In this document: positions 1,700 through 40,492 of the stretch, piece by piece
Numbering within the stretch: position 1 is the stretch's first letter
How the letters are laid out: each line of letters begins with the position of its first letter
From: Octopus vulgaris
Lineage: Eukaryota
DNA length: 64,000 nucleotides
Direction: 5' to 3'
NCBI GenBank assembly: GCA_951406725.2
Contig: OX597834.1
Location: 33,604,001 to 33,668,000, forward strand
Program-made: the position numbers and the translations under genes
Notes under the pieces: generated by a model
What the model was told of the DNA's origin: nothing
Database searches by the model: none
The model's input: the letters and a program-made list of their open reading frames with translations, nothing else

Positions 1700-4260
1700 A
1701 GAGTAACATACATTTTTGATGAATTTTTTTCAGAGATACGTTTCCGAGGGCATAGATTACAATTAGGCGTAACCTACACGACTATGCCATCTCACCCCAT
1801 TTTGTTTTTGATCCTTTCAACCGCACGATTTTCACTAAGAAAAAAAAAAACAAAAACATTCGGATATTTTGCGTGGAATCAAGTACCCTGCGCCCGTATT
1901 TTCTCTCTCTCTCTCTCTTTTACATTTAATCCTGATATAATCTAATCCCAATGGGATTGGAAAAGATCCCTACATTGTATTTGTTGAAAATTTCATTAAA
2001 AATTATCCATTTTTCTGAAAGTTATGAGAAAACGAAGCTGACTCCTGTGAATTTTCCGAAATACCAGTCTCCTTGGAAAAAAATTTGTTCATAATAAATT
2101 CTGTATGTGATGAAATTTGAAAAAAAAAACAACTTTGGAGGGATTTCAGGGCATTACCAACCACCTCCCAGTTTTTCATTATATTTCTCTCCTGAAGTAT
2201 TTACCGGCATAATAATTGAATGAAATATGTTAATCACTAAGTAAGTTAAGGTGTTAGCATTTCACTCACCTTTCCAAAGAGATATTTTCAGTGAATTTTC
2301 CTCAGCAAAATAAGAAGGAAAATAACACAGGATTTCAGCGCAAACATAAAAAAAGTTATGGTTGTCCCTTTATTTCCGTGAGAGAGGGCGGAATTATCCG
2401 AAACTTCTTCTAGGCATTTTAAAAAGCTTTTTCAAATTTTATTATGATAATCATAATCTAACTCCTCGAAAACGAATTTCTGGAAAATTTCATTAAAAAT
2501 TATCTATTTTTCTGAAAGTTATGAGAAAACAAAGCTGTCTCCTGTGAATTTTCCGAAACACCAGTCTCCACCCTTGGAAAAAAATTTGTTCTTAACAAAT
2601 TCTGGTATAATTTGAATCTACATCATCTGGAGCATATTTGTAGAAAATTTCATTAAACAATAGCCATTTTTTTTTTTTGAAAGTTATGAGAAAACAAAAG
2701 GTAAAATTTGATCCTTTCACCCGCACGATTTTCACCAAGAAAAAAAAAAAAAGGAGAAAACTGGGATTTTTTGCGTGGACTCAAATACCTTAACCTGTGT
2801 TTATAGGGAGAAAAATATTGAAAGCCATCAATACATGTCAGAATGGTAAAGAAATGACGAAGATATTAAATGGTCGTGAGATGTGCTAAAAATAACAGCT
2901 AAATCGCCCTGAAATCAAATACAGAAACTTTTTTTGATTATCATGTGAATGAATTCCTGTGTGTAGAACACAAATTCGCAAAACTTTCCAGAAAACTCCC
3001 CCAAAATATAGCTATGAAGGGTTTAAACCAGAATTCCGCCGATAAAAATTTTTCATGAAAAAATATTCATTTTTCTGCAAGTTAAGAGAAAACAAAATCG
3101 ATGGGGCACAATTGCGTAGGTTTGCCTGGTTTGAGGGCACAGAATATGATCGTTGGGATGAAATTTGGAAAAAACAACTTTGGCGGGATTTCAGGCCATT
3201 ACCAACCACCTCCCAGTTTTTCATTATATTTCTCTCATGAAGTATTTACCAGCATAATAATTGAATGAAATATGTTAATCACTAAGTAAGTTAAGGTGTT
3301 AGCATTTCACTCACCTTTCCACAGGGATATTTTCAGTGAATTTTCCTCAGCAAAATAAGAAGGAAAACAACAGAAGATTTCAGCTCAAACATAAGAAAAG
3401 TTATGGTTGTCCCTTTATTTCCGTGAGGGAGGGCGGAATTATCCGAAACTTCTTCTAGGCATTTTTAAAAGCTTTTTTCAAATTTTATTATGATAATCAT
3501 AATCTACATCCTTGAAAACGAATTTCTGGAGAATTTCATTAAAAAATATGCATTTAACAACGTTTGGTGAGAGATTGGGTCGCGGGTGAAAGGACGATCT
3601 TTAAAAAAACAAAATGCTTGTAATTTTCGGTTTTTTTTTGTATTTTCTTTGCAAGATTATTTATGTGGATTTGTGTTGTGTCTGAGGAGAGTCGTACTGC
3701 CTTAATTAATTCTTTACTCATTATTTATATTTTTTCTTCCAAAATTTTCGTTGGTTTTGCAACTTTGTCAATGGATGTTAATTTTATCAGTTATTGGAGC
3801 TCCAGTAGCGGACAGTTAACATCCATTGACGAGGTTGCATCCAATAACTGGCAGATTCAACATCCACTGACAAAGTTGCAAAAGCAACGAAAATTTTGGA
3901 GGAAAAAAAAAACTATAAATAATAAATGTGTGGAAATTGAACTCAAACCAGGCAAGCCTACGCAATTGTACCCCATCGATTTTGTCTCCTTATAACTTGC
4001 AGGAAAATGAATATTTTTTAATGAAAAATTTTTAACGGCGGAATTCTGGTTTAAACCCCTCATAGCTATATTTTGGGGAGTTTTCTGAAATTTTTTGCGA
4101 ATTTGTGTTCTACACACAGGAATTCATTCACATGATAATCAAAAAATTGAACTCTTGTGAAAAAAATTTCGCGGCGCGGGAACGAAATTTGCTTTGGGGA
4201 TGCAAACTCAGGTCCCAAATGTTTTTTCAAATAAGGCTGATTTTTTTTTTCAGTCTTAGT
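1700..4260. repeat. Complex repeat with long direct and inverted duplications (probable decayed DNA-transposon termini)
   Basis: A ~390-bp direct repeat (about 2125-2515 vs 3160-3550), a ~200-bp inverted repeat (2931-3135 vs 3942-4146), and repeated gaaaatttcattaaaaattatccatttttctgaaagttatgag modules. Confidence 0.7.
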
Positions 4261-17544: not shown

Positions 17545-18794
17545 TTAGTTTGTCAAGAAAGTTCTTGTGGATGTTTTAATTTTGGTTTTAAATGATGTAT
17601 TTTCAAATTAATTTTCATTAAATTACTTTGGCTTCATATATCATTTTAAAGCCCGTTTTTCACTCTATCTAATCGTGTTACTCTTTTTCTCTTTGAATAA
17701 TTAGGCCATTTTTTTCAGAACGTTGAATACAACACGGGCAAAAAGCAAATTCACACAATTTTCTTATTCCAGTTCAAGCTAGGCCAAAAAGTTGCTGAAA
17801 CAGCCCACAATATCAACGATGTGCTTGGCCCAGGAACTACTAATGAACGTACAGCACAATGGTGGTTCAAGAAATTTTGTAGTGGTGATGAGAGTCTTGA
17901 AGATGATAAGCATAGTGGTTGGTCATTGGACGTTGACAACGATCAACTAAGAGCCTTAGTCAAAGCCAATCCATGCACGACTGTTTGAGAGCTTGCTTCT
18001 GAATTAGACATAATGTATATCACAATTTCCAACCACTTGAAAGAGATTGGAAAAACAAAAATACTTGACAAATGGGTACCACATGAACTGAACAACCAAA
18101 AAAAAAATGCCATTTTGAAGTGTTGTCTTCCCTTCTTTTACACAACAAGAATGACCTGTTTCTCAGCCAGATTGTGACTTGCGATGAAAAGTGGATTCTT
18201 TATGACAACCGGTGATGCTCAGTTCAGTGGTTGGATGCCGATGAAGCTCCATGGCACTTCCCGAAGCCAAAGTTGCACCAAAAGAAGGTCATGGTGACTG
18301 TTTGGTGGTCCGCAGCCAATCTCATCCATCACAGCTTTTTGGATCCAGGCAAATGGATGAAATGCATAAGAAACTCTGACAATAACAGCCAGCATTGGTC
18401 AATAGAAAAGGACCAATTCTTTTCCATGACAATGCTCAGCCACACGTTGCACAACTGACCCTGCAGAAATTGAATGAATTGGGCTACAAAACTCTACCTC
18501 ATCCAACATACTCACCAGACCTCTCGCCTACCAACTACTTTTTCAAGCATCTCGATAACTTCCTGCATGAGAAATGCTTCAAAAACCAAGACGATGCTAA
18601 ACACTCCTTCAACGACTTCATCACCACCAGATGTAGGATTTTTACACTACTGGAATTAATAAACTTGTTTCGCATTGGCAAAAGTGCGTTGAGTCTGATG
18701 GTGTTTAGTTCGATTAATAAAGTTTTGTTTGAGCCAAGATATGTGCATCTGAATTTAAAGGTTAAAAACCGCAAGAACTTTCTTGACAACCTAA
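17545..18794 (+). mobile_element. Full-length decayed mariner DNA transposon
   Basis: TIRs ttagtttgtcaagaaagttcttg / caagaactttcttgacaacctaa with TA flanks; about 1.25 kb. Transposase remnants WVPHEL, IVTCDEKW, HDNAQPH, YSPDLSPT with frameshifts and stops. Confidence 0.95.
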
Positions 18795-18921
18795 TATATG
18801 TATATGTATACAAGCATATATATATGTGTGTATATATACGTATATATACAAGCATATATATGTGTGTATATATACACATACATATATATGTATTAGTGCA
18901 TATATATATACACACACAACC

Positions 18922-18952
<31 letters not shown>

Positions 18953-19457
18953 TACATGTGTGTGTATTAAAGAGACTTGTTGGGTATGGCTGGAAGTATA
19001 CAAGAAGATATAAAGTAAACTCTAAAAAGGCAAAAAAAAAAAAAGAAAACAATTTTGTAGTTTAACCTTACATTTCTGTATTTCGGGACATTGACCTCTT
19101 CTTCAGGACATGTGGAAAATTGAGGGGTGAAAAACCCCAAAACCATGTGGTTGCATGGCTGCATGGTTGCAGAGTGAGCTTCTTAACCACAAAGCCACAT
19201 GCCAGATGATGAGAAGACACACACATACATACACAGACACGTATACACACACAAACACACATACACAAGCACACACACACACATACGCACACACACACAA
19301 ACACACAAAAATGTTCCTCTTTCATGAATACAAAACAAAAGACTCTGCTTTAACTTAGACCTTATGTTTTACATTAAAAAGCAAATAATTACTCGTACAT
19401 CGTCTTAAAAGACAAAGTGGGGGAAAAAAAAGTGAACTATTTTGCTGGCTGGAATGT

Positions 19458-20098: not shown

Positions 20099-20793
20099 AT
20101 ATTATATTTGAAGCAAAAGCAAAACCAAAGCAGAACGAGTATTTCAAGTCATTTAGAATAATTTAATTAGGGTAAGGTGAATTTGAAGCCTTACAGCCGT
20201 TTCTGGGGTGAATTTGAAGCCTTACAGCCGTTTCTGGTTAGAATATCTACACACTGGGCATTCCGTCATCAGCGACAAGATATGGATATTTAAGACAGGG
20301 GAAATTTAGAGTTTGCAAGGAATAAAATTCACAGTTTATAAGGAATAAAATAGAAGAATAAAGGAATAAATAGAAGAATAAAGAGTAAAAGTAGTGAGAA
20401 GAATATAGGTAGGAGACCTGTACCTTCATGAAAGTACCAACCTACATCCATATCCTCTGGAAAAAAGATGAGTTGGGAGTGTTATTCTGCCTATATTCTT
20501 CTAACTACCTTTTTACTCTCTATTCTCCTATTTACTCCTTTATTCTTCTATTTTATTCCTTATAAACTGTGAATTTTATTTCTTGTAAACTGTAAATTTC
20601 CCCTGTCTAAAATATTCATATCTTGTCGCTGATGACGGAATGCCCAGTGAGTTCATGGACATACTAATTTATCGCTTGGATTACCCCAGAAACAGCTGTA
20701 AGGCTTCAAACTCACCTTCCCCTAATTAATTTATTCTAAATGACTTGAGATACTCGTTCGGCCTTGGTTTTGCTTTTTCCTCTAATATAATAC
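20099..20793. mobile_element. Fold-back element 1 (arms ~310 bp) with a hammerhead-like motif in each arm; Penelope-like pLTR candidate
   Basis: 20099-20412 is the imperfect reverse complement of 20487-20793. CTGATGA (20629) ... GAAACAGCTGTA (20689) on +, mirrored on - at 20223-20272. Confidence 0.75.
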
Positions 20794-20986
20794 ATATATA
20801 TAAGCATATATGCCTGTGTATGTGTATATGTGTGCAGGTGTGTATATAAATACACACACACATTTATACATATATACCATCATTGTCATCATCATCACTT
20901 ACATAATTTCTTGTTTGTTTTCTATGCTAGCATGAGTTGAACCGAAATTTTGATGTCACTGTCAACCTTTCCCTTGTAAAAAGTCA

Positions 20987-21032
<46 letters not shown>

Positions 21033-21219
21033 AGAATAATATGTGTATATATGTATGTATCTGTATCAAATATATATCTGACACAGCTATTGAGTAAACC
21101 TTCAGTTAATGTTTAACAGTTATAAACAAAGATTTATATATATGATTTTTTTTTATGTATGCATAAATATATATGTATGTACATATGTATGTATATGTGT
21201 AAATGTATGTATATCTATA

Positions 21220-21260
<41 letters not shown>

Positions 21261-21704
21261 AGAGAGAGAGAGATGTGGGCATTAGGAAGGGCATCCAGCT
21301 GTAGAAACACTACCAGATCAGACTGGAGCCTGGTGCAGCCTCCTGGCTCCCCGGACCCCAGTTGAACCGTCCGACCCATGCTAGCATGGAAAACAGACGT
21401 TAAACAATGATGGTGAGGATGATAGATAGATATAGATATATATATTACACACACACACATACACACTCACACACACGCATATATGCAATATAGCATATAT
21501 GATGTTTTGAGCATGGCTCTTCATTGGATAGTGAAAGAAAATCCAGGGAAGAGGAAAAAGAGAAAGGAACGGACAGTCAGGAAAAAAGCACATGGGTTGC
21601 TACGTGGTCAAAAAATAACTTTTAATTTTCCATCTAAAACTTTCACCGAGTATCAAACTAATATAGCATATATATGTATATGTATGTATGTGTATGTATG
21701 TATG

Positions 21705-22101: not shown

Positions 22102-23298
22102 TCAGCGTAAGCCCAAGTTGACAACCATTATCACAACAGCTAACATTACCCCGACACGACCTCTACACCGCCGTTGTGTCACTGAGTATCCCGAAGAACG
22201 GGAGTTTTCTGCTAACTCATCCATGATTGGTTGATTTGGGTCGTTATTTGTCTCACTGGACAGACCAAGCCAAGCACTCATTGATGCTCTACCAGATGCG
22301 TTTGATGCCTGGCAGATGTATCGGCCCGTGTCTGATGCTGTGACATTTTGTATGACAAACCAGACCACGTATAACCCAGTCGCCTGGTTTTTCTCAATAA
22401 ACAGTTCCTGTTTTATATTTGTGCTTCCTGTTGTGTTCACCGAAGATACTTTCAACCACTCGATATAAGGCGATGATACGCTACTCACAACACATTTGAA
22501 CCTGGCAACACTACCTTCAGCTACGGTTTGGTTAGTGATGCCTTTAACTACAGGTGGTGCCTGCTTGCTTACTCTGATTACATGTAGATTGTATCGATGA
22601 GTAATTCGACCATGTTTATTTTCAGCAATACACTGATACTCCCCTTCATGTTTAGGGGCCAATTTTTTCATTATCATCGTTTGACCTTCCCATTTGATAC
22701 GATTCCCTTTCTTCCATATCACTTTCGGAACAGGATTTCCATCAGCGTAGCAGCGGAGTTTTAACTGTGATCCTGCAGGAAAGTATAGATCAGATCTGTC
22801 TTTACGAACCCAAAATGGAGGTTTACCTTCGCTTTCCCCTTCAATGCTTTCATTGTGCATTTGGTCAGTTTTTATGGACTCTGCCTGAGAAAGATTTTTG
22901 GTGAGAACCCGGAAATCTGATCTCAGTTTATGACCATTTTTTGTTTCTGTTCTGCAAGAATAATTCCCAGAATCCTCTGCTTTATAAGGGTTCATTACTA
23001 AAGTATTCCGTGAAACTTTAATTCGGGAACTATTATTGTTAGTGTCTGCCGTTTGCTTCAGAATCTGTGAATTTTTGAACCAGGACATGCTTAACTTGGA
23101 GTGACCTCTGACTTTACATACAAACTTCATCTTCTCACCTGGTGTGCCATATTGGAGAGGCTGGGGCTGGCGACGGAATGAAGGTTTATGTAACCTTAAG
23201 CTTGTGTCATTTGTCACAGAAACACGTGCCCCAGCAACATGAATGACAAGAAGAAGCAAAACAGACAAAGCTGAAACAATATCGTGTGAAACGAACAT
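22102..23298 (-). CDS. FGFRL1: Uninterrupted FGFR-like (FGFRL1/nou-darake-like) protein: signal peptide, 3 Ig domains, C-terminal hydrophobic tail, no kinase
   Basis: 398-aa non-repetitive ORF. Hydrophobic signal peptide (IVSALSVLLLLVIHVAG). Ig1: FVCKV..WFKN..DSGNYSC. Short acidic linker: ESIEGESEG. FGFR D2-like: PAGSQLKLRCYADGNPVPKVIWKK..EGEYQCIAENKHGRITHRYNLHV. FGFR D3-like: NQTVAEGSVARFKCVVSS..PYIEWLK..NVTASDTGRYICQASNASG..SAWL. Ends VGVMLAVVIMVVNLGLR*. The symbol is a family-level call; orthology is not established. Confidence 0.88.
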   Translation of the reverse strand: MFVSHDIVSALSVLLLLVIHVAGARVSVTNDTSLRLHKPSFRRQPQPLQYGTPGEKMKFVCKVRGHSKLSMSWFKNSQILKQTADTNNNSSRIKVSRNTLVMNPYKAEDSGNYSCRTETKNGHKLRSDFRVLTKNLSQAESIKTDQMHNESIEGESEGKPPFWVRKDRSDLYFPAGSQLKLRCYADGNPVPKVIWKKGNRIKWEGQTMIMKKLAPKHEGEYQCIAENKHGRITHRYNLHVIRVSKQAPPVVKGITNQTVAEGSVARFKCVVSSVSSPYIEWLKVSSVNTTGSTNIKQELFIEKNQATGLYVVWFVIQNVTASDTGRYICQASNASGRASMSAWLGLSSETNNDPNQPIMDELAENSRSSGYSVTQRRCRGRVGVMLAVVIMVVNLGLR

Positions 23299-23303
23299 TA
23301 TTA

Positions 23304-23346
<43 letters not shown>

Positions 23347-23601
23347 AGGTTGGTGAGTGTATGTATGTACGTGTGTATGAGTGTCTCAGTATGGCTGGTT
23401 AGATCTACTTTCAGTTTTCATTTACAGAATCATCACAGCATGGAGAAGCCACTTGCCTTAATGCCAAAGGGAACGCTGATGATTTTTGGCATGCCCTTAA
23501 TTGCACTAGTGTGTCCATCCTCATCCTTTGGATCACAGTCATGTGCACACACACACACATATACACACAGATACATACGCACATGCACACACACACACGC
23601 A

Positions 23602-39214: not shown

Positions 39215-40492
39215 TTGGGTTGGCAACTAAGTTCCTGTCGTTTTTTAATATTTAAATTTTTTAAAAAGGTTTAATAAAAAGTAACAACTAATTAATCAAT
39301 TATGTATTCACCCCTGTTGTTTAGAACTTCTTCCCAACGTTCAACAAGATTTTCAATATCTCGTTGGTAGAAATCACTCGATTTCGACTCGAAAAATTGA
39401 TCGAACCAAGCTCTCAATTCTGCATCATTATTGAACGAAACTCCGCGCATAACATTTGAAAGAAATCGAAAGAGATGGATACCCGTTAGTGCCAAATCAA
39501 GAGAGTACGGCGGGTGTGGCAGCACTTCCTAGCCATGCGTTTGAATGGCTTCCTTGGTCATATTGGCAATATGAGGGTAGGCATTGTCGTGCAGCAGAAC
39601 TCCATTAGGTCTTTTCTCTTGAATAGCCGTGTTGAGTCGTTCCATCAGTTGAACACAGATTTCCGCGTTGACCGTTTGGTTCCGTTCAAACAATTCGTAA
39701 TGGATAATCCCTTCATGTCCCACCATACGCATAACATCGTTTTAGGCGGATGAAGATCTTGTTTCACGCGCGGTGTCGCTTGTTCACCGGGGCTAAGCCA
39801 TTCCTTATGCTGCTTCATATTGATGTACAGGCACCATTTTTCGTCGCCAGTAACGATTCGGTAAAGAAATCGTTGCTTGTGTCCATGAGTTGAGCGGTGA
39901 CGAGCAAGCAAAACTGCGGAGATTGTGGCTCGTTGATTCTTGTTGTTGTCACTTAAAGCATGCGGAACCCATGCGCCATACTTCTGAACCTTTCCCATCG
40001 AGTGAAGACGCTTCTCTATAGCAGTGTGGGAGCATTCCATTTTCTCTGTTAGTTCCCTTGTCGATTGACGAGAATTTTCGTGCAAAAGTTGGCTTAATCG
40101 CTCTTCATCGAACTCAAGTGGACGGTCAGAACAAGGTGCGTCTTTGAGATCAAAATTTCCGTTTTTGAACTTGGCATACCAATCACGAGCGGTTCTTTCA
40201 GCTATGGCACCCTCTCCATACACAGCACAAATGTCGCGAGCAGCTTTTGCGGCCTTAGAACCGATTAAAAGCAAAGAGAAGGAGGTGTCGAAAATGCTCG
40301 TTTTTCTTAACTTGACATTCCGTTTTAATGATCTGAAAATAAACAAAAATTAACTAAAATTGACTAGAAAGAAAAATAGATTCCAAAATGATTCAAAAAT
40401 AGAATTCTCGCAAAAAATAGATTCCAAAATTTAAAAACGCAATAAATTCCAAAATTAAAAAAAACCCGGCGGGAACTTAGTTGCCAACTCAA
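39215..40492 (-). mobile_element. Full-length decayed mariner DNA transposon (different family from the 17.5 kb copy)
   Basis: TIRs ttgggttggcaactaagttcc / ggaacttagttgccaactcaa with TA flanks. ORF pieces 39645..40346 (WVPHAL, IVTGDEKW), 39529..39732 (HDNAYPH) and 39292..39525 (YSLDLA). Confidence 0.95.
39292..40320 (-). pseudogene. Frameshifted mariner transposase
   Basis: HTH region and catalytic-domain motifs are split over three reading frames. Confidence 0.9.

What the first reader, a model, noticed from the sequence alone, without database searches (positions are those of the whole stretch)
22102..23298. Intronless, kinase-less FGFR ectodomain ending in a GPI-signal-like tail
Seen: the signal peptide and all three Ig domains lie in one uninterrupted ORF. 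The protein stops one residue after a ~16-aa hydrophobic stretch, preceded by small residues (NSRSSGYS), so there is no cytoplasmic tail. Known: FGFR and FGFRL1 genes normally split Ig domains across exons, and FGFRL1/nou-darake have a transmembrane helix plus a short intracellular tail and act as decoy or adhesion receptors. Inference: this may be a retroposed, lineage-specific GPI-anchored or shed FGF decoy. The ORF remains intact amid heavily decayed DNA, which suggests selection.
Basis: partly seen in the sequence, partly recalled or inferred. Interest (0 to 1): 0.75.

Follow-up and report, generated by a model that had tools for sequence, protein, structure and literature searches.

The report
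Kinase-free FGF-receptor retrogene of cephalopods
This octopus gene encodes, in one unbroken reading frame, only the outer three-domain part of an FGF-receptor-like protein and is kept intact in related animals; it is likely an old mRNA-derived copy of the FGF receptor gene, is predicted to hang on the cell surface by a lipid (GPI) anchor, and more likely binds heparan-sulfate sugars than traps FGF.

Summary
A 398-codon single-exon ORF encodes a signal peptide, three Ig domains and a hydrophobic end with no cytoplasmic tail. It is not an exon of a larger receptor: no FGFR TM or kinase match lies in 264 kb, and Notch ends 34.5 kb downstream on the other strand. The genome has a separate intron-rich FGFR (C22) and FGFRL1 (C14), so this is a third gene. 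Ten homologues (39-97% identical) all end the same way. Profiles of D1 and D3 rank molluscan or cephalopod FGFR domains first among about 3,400-4,000 scored; FGFRL1 and IgLON-types rank lower. Trees cannot fix the branch point. The tail is too weak for a TM helix and fits a GPI signal (rule-based check only). The FGF-decoy idea is weakened: the D2-D3 linker Arg is Val in 8 of 8 members. D2 is the best-conserved domain, with 15 fixed basic positions. Best reading: an old FGFR retrocopy turned into a GPI-anchored heparan-sulfate-binding surface protein. Expression, anchor and ligand are untested. No paper describing it was found, and the scan had no look-alike on other DNA.

The parts
22102..23298 (-). 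Single coding exon, 398 aa (P0001), kinase-less FGFR-type ectodomain
   Evidence: only match in the own genome at E<=1e-5
23227..23298 (-). Predicted signal peptide, residues 1-24, cleavage likely after A-G-A
   Evidence: read from the sequence; helix 4-26 in the model; an Arg follows the hydrophobic stretch in all 7 aligned members; SignalP not available
22897..23193 (-). Ig D1 (36-134), FGFR-D1 type, basic (net +14)
   Evidence: family D1 profile ranks molluscan FGFR D1 at 1-5 of 3372 domains; FGFRL1 D1 rank 1537; charge
22828..22896 (-). D1-D2 linker (135-157), moderately acidic, disordered, poorly conserved; sits where the FGFR acid box lies
   Evidence: pLDDT<50 at 137-154; 2-5 of 23 identical in distant homologues
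22567..22827 (-). Ig D2 (158-244): best-conserved domain, 7-11 residues shorter than FGFR D2, 15 K/R columns fixed; predicted heparan-sulfate-binding domain
22255..22563 (-). Ig D3 (246-348), FGFR-D3 type; preceded by a linker in which the FGFR Arg is Val243
   Evidence: family D3 profile ranks cephalopod FGFR D3 at 1-5 of 3981; FGFRL1 rank 8
22183..22203 (-). Candidate GPI omega sites (S366, S368, G370, S372), 26-32 residues from the end
   Evidence: rule-based scan; not a trained predictor
22156..22182 (-). Basic spacer (373-381) with an Arg-rich stretch that is not conserved in the distant homologues
   Evidence: sequence; alignment
22105..22155 (-). C-terminal hydrophobic tail (382-398), weaker than a true TM helix
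   Evidence: KD19 1.74 and Hessa sum +5.2, against FGFR TM 3.32/-5.9 and FGFRL1 TM 3.01/-2.8
23299..23421 (-). Upstream (ATA)n microsatellite and a ~75-nt stretch that a homologue reads in frame but that has a stop here; likely 5' UTR
   Evidence: frame comparison with the P0003 N-terminus
20544..21626 (-). Candidate polyadenylation signals (ATTAAA at 21626; AATAAA at 20735 and 20580-20544); use not shown

Best explanation
This is an intact single-coding-exon gene for a signal peptide, three FGFR-type Ig domains and a hydrophobic end without TM helix or kinase, likely an old retrocopy of the FGFR gene that is predicted to be GPI-anchored and would most likely act by binding heparan sulfate through its basic D2 (and D1) rather than by trapping FGF. 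Shown: gene anatomy, separateness from the genome's FGFR and FGFRL1, conservation, loss of the linker Arg, fixed basic residues. Inferred: origin by reverse transcription of an FGFR mRNA, either a short ectodomain-only transcript or a full copy whose 3' half decayed (about 0.7); origin before the octopod-decapodiform split (about 0.8; the taxa of the distant homologues are not given); GPI transfer near S366-S372 (about 0.7); a heparan-sulfate-dependent adhesion or co-receptor role, competing with FGFR for heparan sulfate and releasable by GPI cleavage (about 0.5).
For: Anatomy. Third gene: multi-exon FGFR with kinase at G000:C22:25.094-25.140 Mb; multi-exon FGFRL1 with TM and His-rich tail at C14:83.744-83.759 Mb. 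FGFR parent: BLASTP bits of 4 family members against cephalopod FGFR ectodomains 133-149, Aplysia FGFR 105-114, octopus FGFRL1 97-100, Amalgam 61-72; domain-profile ranks. Seven introns seen in the matching part of FGFR are all absent here, and the locus is on another contig, beside Notch. Tail: 8 of 8 end 0-1 residue after their most hydrophobic window, KD19 1.46-1.77 against 3.0-3.3 for three true TMs; small-residue omega candidates 28-32 from the end in 7 of 8. Language-model neighbours include lachesin, neurotrimin, OPCML and NEGR1 clusters (that these are GPI-anchored is recalled). Selection: 98.5% ectodomain identity to O. bimaculoides against 96.6% for FGFR; D2 87 of 87 identical. D2 has 43 of 87 invariant columns and 15 K/R columns in all 8 members, three of them (212, 216, 228) acidic in the cephalopod FGFRs. 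In FGFRL1 the second Ig domain binds heparin and the protein promotes adhesion (PMC4899019 passages). Linker Arg: Val in 8 of 8 members, Arg in 6 of 6 mollusc and chelicerate FGFRs; FGFs contact D2, the linker and D3 (PMC6299260 passages).
Against: Trees do not place the family: AU tests reject neither family+cephalopod FGFR (p 0.24, 0.18) nor family+FGFRL1 (p 0.27, 0.23), and informative-site counts are flat. Outgroups also score higher on cephalopod than on Aplysia FGFR (Tachypleus 236-258 against 194), so closeness to cephalopod FGFR does not date the copy. Only one FGFRL1 (assembled without its linker exon) and one gastropod FGFR were available. Net D2 charge (+11) equals that of the octopus FGFR D2. 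The linker Arg is present in only 13 of 25 FGFR records (insect forms vary), so its loss does not prove loss of FGF binding. P0163 has no omega candidate in the scanned 17-33 range except one at 21; its SGS lies further upstream. No trained GPI predictor, no dN/dS and no recorded RNA run were available. No poly(A) remnant or target-site duplication was sought successfully, and intron status in the distant homologues is unknown.
Confidence: 0.45

Rival explanations
1. Same gene and origin, but it works as an FGF decoy or FGF-presenting co-receptor: D2-D3 bind FGF with heparan sulfate and dampen or shape FGFR signalling.
For: Full D1-D2-D3 FGFR layout kept; 43 of 87 FGFR-conserved columns are kept; the genome has FGF genes; FGFRL1 binds FGFs and is proposed as a decoy (PMC2754479 text; PMC6240607 passages); insect FGFR forms also lack the linker Arg.
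Against: Linker Arg is Val in 8 of 8; the D3 Asp is kept in 3 of 8; 44 of 87 FGFR-conserved columns are changed (the 25-FGFR set is insect-heavy). D3 is less conserved than D2 in the distant homologues (41-44 of 103 against 47-50 of 87).
Confidence: 0.25
2. The tail is not a GPI signal: the protein is secreted or shed (for example by cleavage in the Arg-rich spacer), or held by a marginal C-terminal membrane helix.
For: The octopod spacer is Arg-rich; the tail diverges fast (2-4 of 17 identical in distant homologues); no trained predictor was run.
Against: The hydrophobic end, its distance from a small-residue cluster and the immediate stop are all kept despite sequence turnover. The Arg-rich stretch is absent in the distant homologues. 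Hessa sums of +4.0 to +8.1 argue against stable TM insertion.
Confidence: 0.15
3. It descends from FGFRL1, or from an older FGFR/FGFRL1 duplicate, and lost its introns later; it is not an FGFR retrocopy.
For: AU tests do not reject family+FGFRL1; FGFRL1 already lacks the kinase; D2 scores are similar for FGFR and FGFRL1.
Against: D1 profile: octopus FGFR D1 43.1 bits (rank 1), FGFRL1 D1 6.2 bits (rank 1537); D3 54-58 against 43.5. The short insert-free start of D3 matches FGFR, not FGFRL1 (alignment). An intact FGFRL1 exists elsewhere in the genome.
Confidence: 0.1
4. It is an IgLON/lachesin/DIP-family adhesion protein whose FGFR likeness is generic Ig similarity.
For: Same layout (signal, 3 Ig, hydrophobic end); language-model neighbours; shortened D2; Foldseek lists DIP and IgLON chains in the top 10, but at TM-scores of only 0.2-0.3.
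Against: Amalgam scores 61-72 bits against 133-149 for FGFR; PDB IgLONs at 1e-11 to 2e-12 against 4e-29; domain-by-domain colinearity with FGFR D1, D2, D3.
Confidence: 0.04
5. The ORF is a pseudogene, or one large exon of a longer receptor spliced to downstream TM or kinase exons.
For: A possible phase-1 donor lies at the end of D3 (window 22256).
Against: That site is Asn in P0003, which excludes the GT there. No phase-1 TM-exon candidate in the 34.5 kb before Notch, while the same scan finds the FGFR and FGFRL1 TM exons. No FGFR TM/kinase match in 264 kb or FGFR-kinase match on C21. One contig of run X1 spans the ORF without joint or loose end (RNA is only the tool's guess). Ten intact homologues share the stop position.
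Confidence: 0.03

Closest known systems
Cephalopod FGFR (P0165, named FGFR2-like [Octopus vulgaris]; G000:C22) and vertebrate FGFR1-4 ectodomains (PDB 1ry7 and others)
   Same: Signal peptide, D1, linker, D2, D3 in register; 31% identity over 333 columns, E 2e-44; cysteines, tryptophans, the NQT sequon and the D3 end motif kept.
   Different: No introns in the coding region, no TM, juxtamembrane or kinase; linker Arg to Val; D2 shortened; about twice the ectodomain divergence of FGFR (44-47% against 67% identity).
FGFRL1 / nou-darake (PMC2754479, PMC4899019)
   Same: Kinase-less three-Ig FGFR relative; basic second Ig domain; a likely functional analogue (heparin binding, adhesion, possible decoy).
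   Different: FGFRL1 has a TM helix, a cytoplasmic tail and a conserved multi-exon structure; the octopus has its own FGFRL1 elsewhere. This looks like a second, independent loss of the kinase.
IgLON / lachesin / DIP proteins
   Same: Signal, three Ig domains and a GPI-type tail (GPI status recalled); nearest by language-model features.
   Different: Sequence ancestry is FGFR; the layout is convergent.
T-cadherin, TRAIL decoy receptor DcR1, GFR-alpha co-receptors (recalled; GFR-alpha1 as GPI co-receptor also in PMC6240607 passages)
   Same: Receptor-type ectodomain on a GPI anchor without an intracellular part.
   Different: Unrelated folds and families; analogy only, not tested.

Membership tests
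FGFR receptor tyrosine kinases | Signal peptide plus three Ig domains of FGFR D1/D2/D3 type | tested here: met
FGFR receptor tyrosine kinases | Single TM helix | tested here: not met
   (KD19 1.74, Hessa +5.2)
FGFR receptor tyrosine kinases | Intracellular split tyrosine kinase | tested here: not met
FGFR receptor tyrosine kinases | D2-D3 linker Arg and D3 Asp of the FGF-binding hinge (their role is recalled) | tested here: not met
   Arg 0 of 8, Asp 3 of 8; both 6 of 6 in mollusc and chelicerate FGFRs; Arg 13 of 25 in all FGFR records
FGFR receptor tyrosine kinases | Binds FGF and heparan sulfate | not testable with these tools
   needs binding assays; octopus FGFs were found only as separate exons
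FGFRL1 / nou-darake | Three Ig domains, no kinase | tested here: met
FGFRL1 / nou-darake | TM helix plus cytoplasmic tail | tested here: not met
   the genome's FGFRL1 has 72 residues after its TM
FGFRL1 / nou-darake | Conserved multi-exon structure (six exons from Nematostella to human; similar in Lottia) | tested here: not met
   PMC2754479; single coding exon here
FGFRL1 / nou-darake | Orthology by best hit or tree | tested here: inconclusive
   scores favour FGFR; AU tests do not reject FGFRL1; the orthologue slot is filled by the C14 gene
IgLON / lachesin / DIP | Sequence ancestry of the three Ig domains | tested here: not met
GPI-anchored proteins | N-terminal signal, small omega/omega+2 residues, spacer, moderately hydrophobic end, no cytoplasmic tail | tested here: met
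   rule-based only; omega candidates 28-32 from the end in 7 of 8, hydrophobic end in 8 of 8
GPI-anchored proteins | Trained predictor call and PI-PLC release | not testable with these tools
   NetGPI and PredGPI are not available
Retrogenes | Lacks the parent's introns and lies at an unlinked locus | tested here: met
   0 against 7 shown introns; C21 against C22
Retrogenes | Poly(A) remnant, target-site duplication, parent fixed by phylogeny | tested here: inconclusive
   no poly(A) run in the 600 nt after the stop; target-site duplication not searched; trees open

The most novel reading that the evidence does not exclude
Coleoid cephalopods evolved, by retroposition of the FGFR ectodomain, a second kinase-less FGFR that is GPI-anchored, a form I found described for no animal. 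It rewired its D2 surface into a heparan-sulfate-binding adhesion or gradient-shaping module and has been kept beside FGFR and FGFRL1 since before octopuses and squids split.
Probability: 0.4. Interest if true: 0.7.

Novelty: new variant of a known kind. Interest (0 to 1): 0.52.

Why it matters
It would be an independent second origin of a kinase-less FGFR, with a different membrane anchor from FGFRL1. How FGFRL1/nou-darake works (FGF trap or heparan-sulfate adhesion protein) is still open (PMC4865367, PMC4899019 passages). A natural variant that lost the linker Arg but fixed a basic D2 separates these two functions and makes them testable. It is also a candidate cephalopod-specific developmental gene that is hidden under the automatic name 'FGFR3-like'.

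Tried and rejected
Sequencing runs: no RNA holder listed on record, so this says nothing on expression. Of 8 runs laid, X1 gave one full-length contig, X19 gave four partial near-identical pieces with 2 differences (1 synonymous, 1 not), and 6 gave nothing, which the tool says can be a filter effect. No silent control stretch was laid. dN/dS was therefore not possible. The homodimer prediction (residues 35-350, two copies) returned no verdict. The first fold on 4 sequences was poor (pLDDT 52.9); the second was usable per domain (72.2, pTM 0.32), but Foldseek matched generic multi-Ig chains at TM 0.2-0.3 and did not discriminate. The profile search of 50% representatives was swamped by giant multi-Ig proteins (best 150 of 11,663 shown), so distant members in gastropods, bivalves or Nautilus are not excluded. 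Per-domain PDB searches were likewise led by summed multi-Ig scores. The metagenome scan gave 2 weak generic Ig loci from 207 candidates. Three trees and AU tests left the branch point open. Linkage to FGF, FGFR or FGFRL1 was considered and not found: they lie on C16, C20, C22 and C14. An acceptor-like site inside the signal-peptide codons was considered and set aside, because the N-terminal peptide is conserved in four octopod proteins. Primary structural papers on the linker Arg were not held, nor was the FGFRL1 shedding paper.

Full report
Observation. The minus-strand ORF at window 22102-23298 is open for 398 codons. It encodes a signal-peptide-like start, three Ig I-set domains, a disordered stalk, a small-residue cluster at 365-372, a basic nine-residue spacer and a 16-residue hydrophobic stretch followed by one Arg and the stop. 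Its best solved relative is the FGFR3 D1-D3 ectodomain (E 4.3e-29). A model built on 33 sequences gives three Ig folds, with disordered linker and stalk (pLDDT 72.2). The surroundings are ordinary repeat-rich DNA: of 146 other long open frames scanned (the longest of 240 candidates, 4 in or beside the ORF left out), 5 hit transposase families, 1 gave a sub-threshold SDA1 hit and 140 nothing.

It is a whole coding unit. The window lies at G000:C21:33,604,001-33,668,000. In 264 kb around the ORF, the post-D3 parts of three FGFRs and of FGFRL1 find no match at E<=0.05, while the FGFR queries find the TM and kinase exons at C22. An FGFR kinase exon has 4 matches in the genome, none on C21. A Notch gene on the opposite strand ends at C21:33,591,561, 34.5 kb past the stop. 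A scan of that gap for phase-1 TM exons gives 0 candidates and recovers the FGFR and FGFRL1 TM exons as controls. A possible donor at the end of D3 (window 22256) is not conserved in P0003. One contig of run X1 spans the ORF with no joint or loose end. Its RNA status is the tool's guess and it may be the DNA's source, so this is weak.

It is a third gene. The genome has an FGFR with a full kinase at C22:25.094-25.140 Mb, whose kinase exon is 100% identical to P0165, named FGFR2-like [Octopus vulgaris]. Seven introns lie between its D1 and TM exons, and an eighth is inferred before D1. FGFRL1 lies at C14:83.744-83.759 Mb, with separate D1, D2, D3a, D3b and TM-tail exons and a His-rich tail; D3 is split as described for Lottia (PMC2754479). 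The ORF has one match in the genome at E<=1e-5, itself.

Conservation. Ten homologues were retrieved: P0009 (O. bimaculoides, FGFR3-like, 97%, four RefSeq accessions with the same protein), P0002 (93%), P0003 (86%), P0004 and P0010-14 (43-44%; P0010 on 61 and P0011 on 37 contigs) and P0163 (39%). All stop at or just after a hydrophobic end. P0010's best match in the own genome is this locus (E 4.8e-98; next 8e-6). The distant ones are unnamed Logan records. I infer decapodiform cephalopods because their split pattern parallels that of unnamed FGFRs that are 67% (ectodomain) and 90-92% (kinase) identical to the octopus FGFR, closer than Aplysia (43%, 71%); this is not shown. Against O. bimaculoides the ectodomain is 98.5% identical (FGFR 96.6%), so it is under constraint now. 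Over the deep split it diverged about twice as far as FGFR. The four accessions suggest non-coding exons (inference), so 'intronless' applies to the coding region.

Parent. Four family members score 133-149 bits on cephalopod FGFR ectodomains, 105-114 on Aplysia FGFR, 103-117 on Tachypleus FGFR, 97-100 on octopus FGFRL1 and 61-72 on Amalgam. Among the Ig domains of 273 stored proteins, the family D1 profile ranks molluscan FGFR D1 at 1-5 of 3372 (FGFRL1 D1 at 1537). The D3 profile ranks cephalopod FGFR D3 at 1-5 of 3981 (FGFRL1 at 8). D2 does not discriminate. That set is rich in FGFRs and holds one FGFRL1, built without its linker exon. Trees recover the family (95-100% support) on a long stem but leave its place open; AU tests reject neither FGFR nor FGFRL1 as sister. 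Outgroups also prefer cephalopod over Aplysia FGFR, so the copy cannot be dated beyond its minimum age. Loss of all seven introns plus an unlinked site is most simply a retrocopy (inference). Retrocopies usually lose the 5' end (recalled), so keeping the 5' half points to a short ectodomain-only mRNA as template, or to later decay of the 3' half.

Anchor. In 8 of 8 members the most hydrophobic 19-residue window after D3 ends 0-1 residue from the C-terminus, with KD 1.46-1.77 and Hessa sums of +4.0 to +8.1; two FGFR TMs and the FGFRL1 TM score 3.0-3.3 and -2.8 to -5.9. Small-residue omega candidates lie 28-32 residues from the end in 7 of 8; in P0163 the matching SGS is further upstream. The pattern survives although only 2-4 of 17 tail residues are shared with the distant homologues. 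Language-model neighbours include lachesin, neurotrimin, OPCML and NEGR1 clusters. The omega rules and the GPI status of those families are recalled; no trained predictor was available.

Function. FGFs contact D2, the D2-D3 linker and D3 (PMC6299260). The linker Arg is Val in 8 of 8 members but Arg in 6 of 6 mollusc and chelicerate FGFRs; the D3 Asp is kept in 3 of 8 against 6 of 6. That these residues bond to FGF is recalled; R250Q is listed as an FGFR1 variant in PMC5121281. Against over-reading: the Arg is present in only 13 of 25 FGFR records, as insect forms vary. D2 is the best-kept domain (43 of 87 columns invariant; D1 38 of 99; D3 35 of 103). It has 15 columns that are K/R in all 8 members, including 212, 216 and 228, which are acidic in the cephalopod FGFRs; D1 has 13 and D3 has 3. 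Net D2 charge (+11) is no higher than in the octopus FGFR. In FGFRL1 the second Ig domain binds heparin and the protein promotes adhesion (PMC4899019). I therefore favour a GPI-anchored heparan-sulfate-binding adhesion or co-receptor role (0.45 for the whole chain) over an FGF decoy (0.25); the two are not exclusive.

Comparison and novelty. It is not a member of the FGFR kinases (no TM, no kinase), not the FGFRL1 orthologue (no TM or tail, no introns, slot filled) and not an IgLON by descent. It probably works like FGFRL1 or an IgLON. Ten literature searches found no description of this gene or of a GPI-anchored FGFR; the library lacks most subscription papers, and cephalopod genome supplements that I did not read may list it. 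Papers seen: PMC2754479, parts 1-3 of 6 of the text plus passages; PMC6299260, PMC4899019, PMC6240607, PMC4865367, PMC5121281, PMC4361686, PMC9839350 and PMC12932670, passages only; all others as search listings. The scan had no look-alike by sequence or words; two notes on other octopus retrogenes exist, which I did not check.

Verdict. A real, conserved gene and a new variant of a known kind; anchor, ligand and expression are untested. Interest 0.52.

Noticed in passing
G000:C21:33,544,505-33,591,561 (L069, L072, L073), ending about 12 kb before the window start: A Notch gene (EGF, LNR, NOD, ankyrin exons) on the + strand, convergent with the ORF; whether this linkage is conserved in squids is unknown.
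   Followed up: partly
G000:C20:23.62, 23.67 and 23.92 Mb (L005, L004, L007): Three near-identical partial copies of FGFRL1 (D2 exon; D3a exon seen in two), about 5.4 Mb from an FGF gene at C20:18.24 Mb, while the complete-looking FGFRL1 sits near the end of C14. Recent segmental duplication or assembly artefact; recalls the FGF-FGFRL1 linkage of PMC2754479.
   Followed up: no
G000:C19:5,541,483-5,541,665: A 95%-identical copy of an FGFR kinase exon with one stop; likely a partial pseudogene.
   Followed up: no
window 17701-18967 and 39532-40349: Broken mariner-type transposase remnants.
   Followed up: no
window 23346-23421 (-): Upstream ATG with an 11-codon uORF; the matching stretch is read in frame with the main ORF in homologue P0003.
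   Followed up: partly
window 22648-22650 (-), residue 217: The Asp of the D2 D-x-G-x-Y-x-C motif, present in 25 of 25 FGFRs, is His in 8 of 8 family members: a diagnostic mark of the family.
   Followed up: no
G000:C16:8.447 Mb (L062): An FGF last exon with a long Thr-rich and very basic C-terminal extension.
   Followed up: no
insect FGFR records P0177-P0280: Hymenopteran FGFRs come in two D3a forms, with and without the linker Arg, suggesting alternative exons.
   Followed up: no
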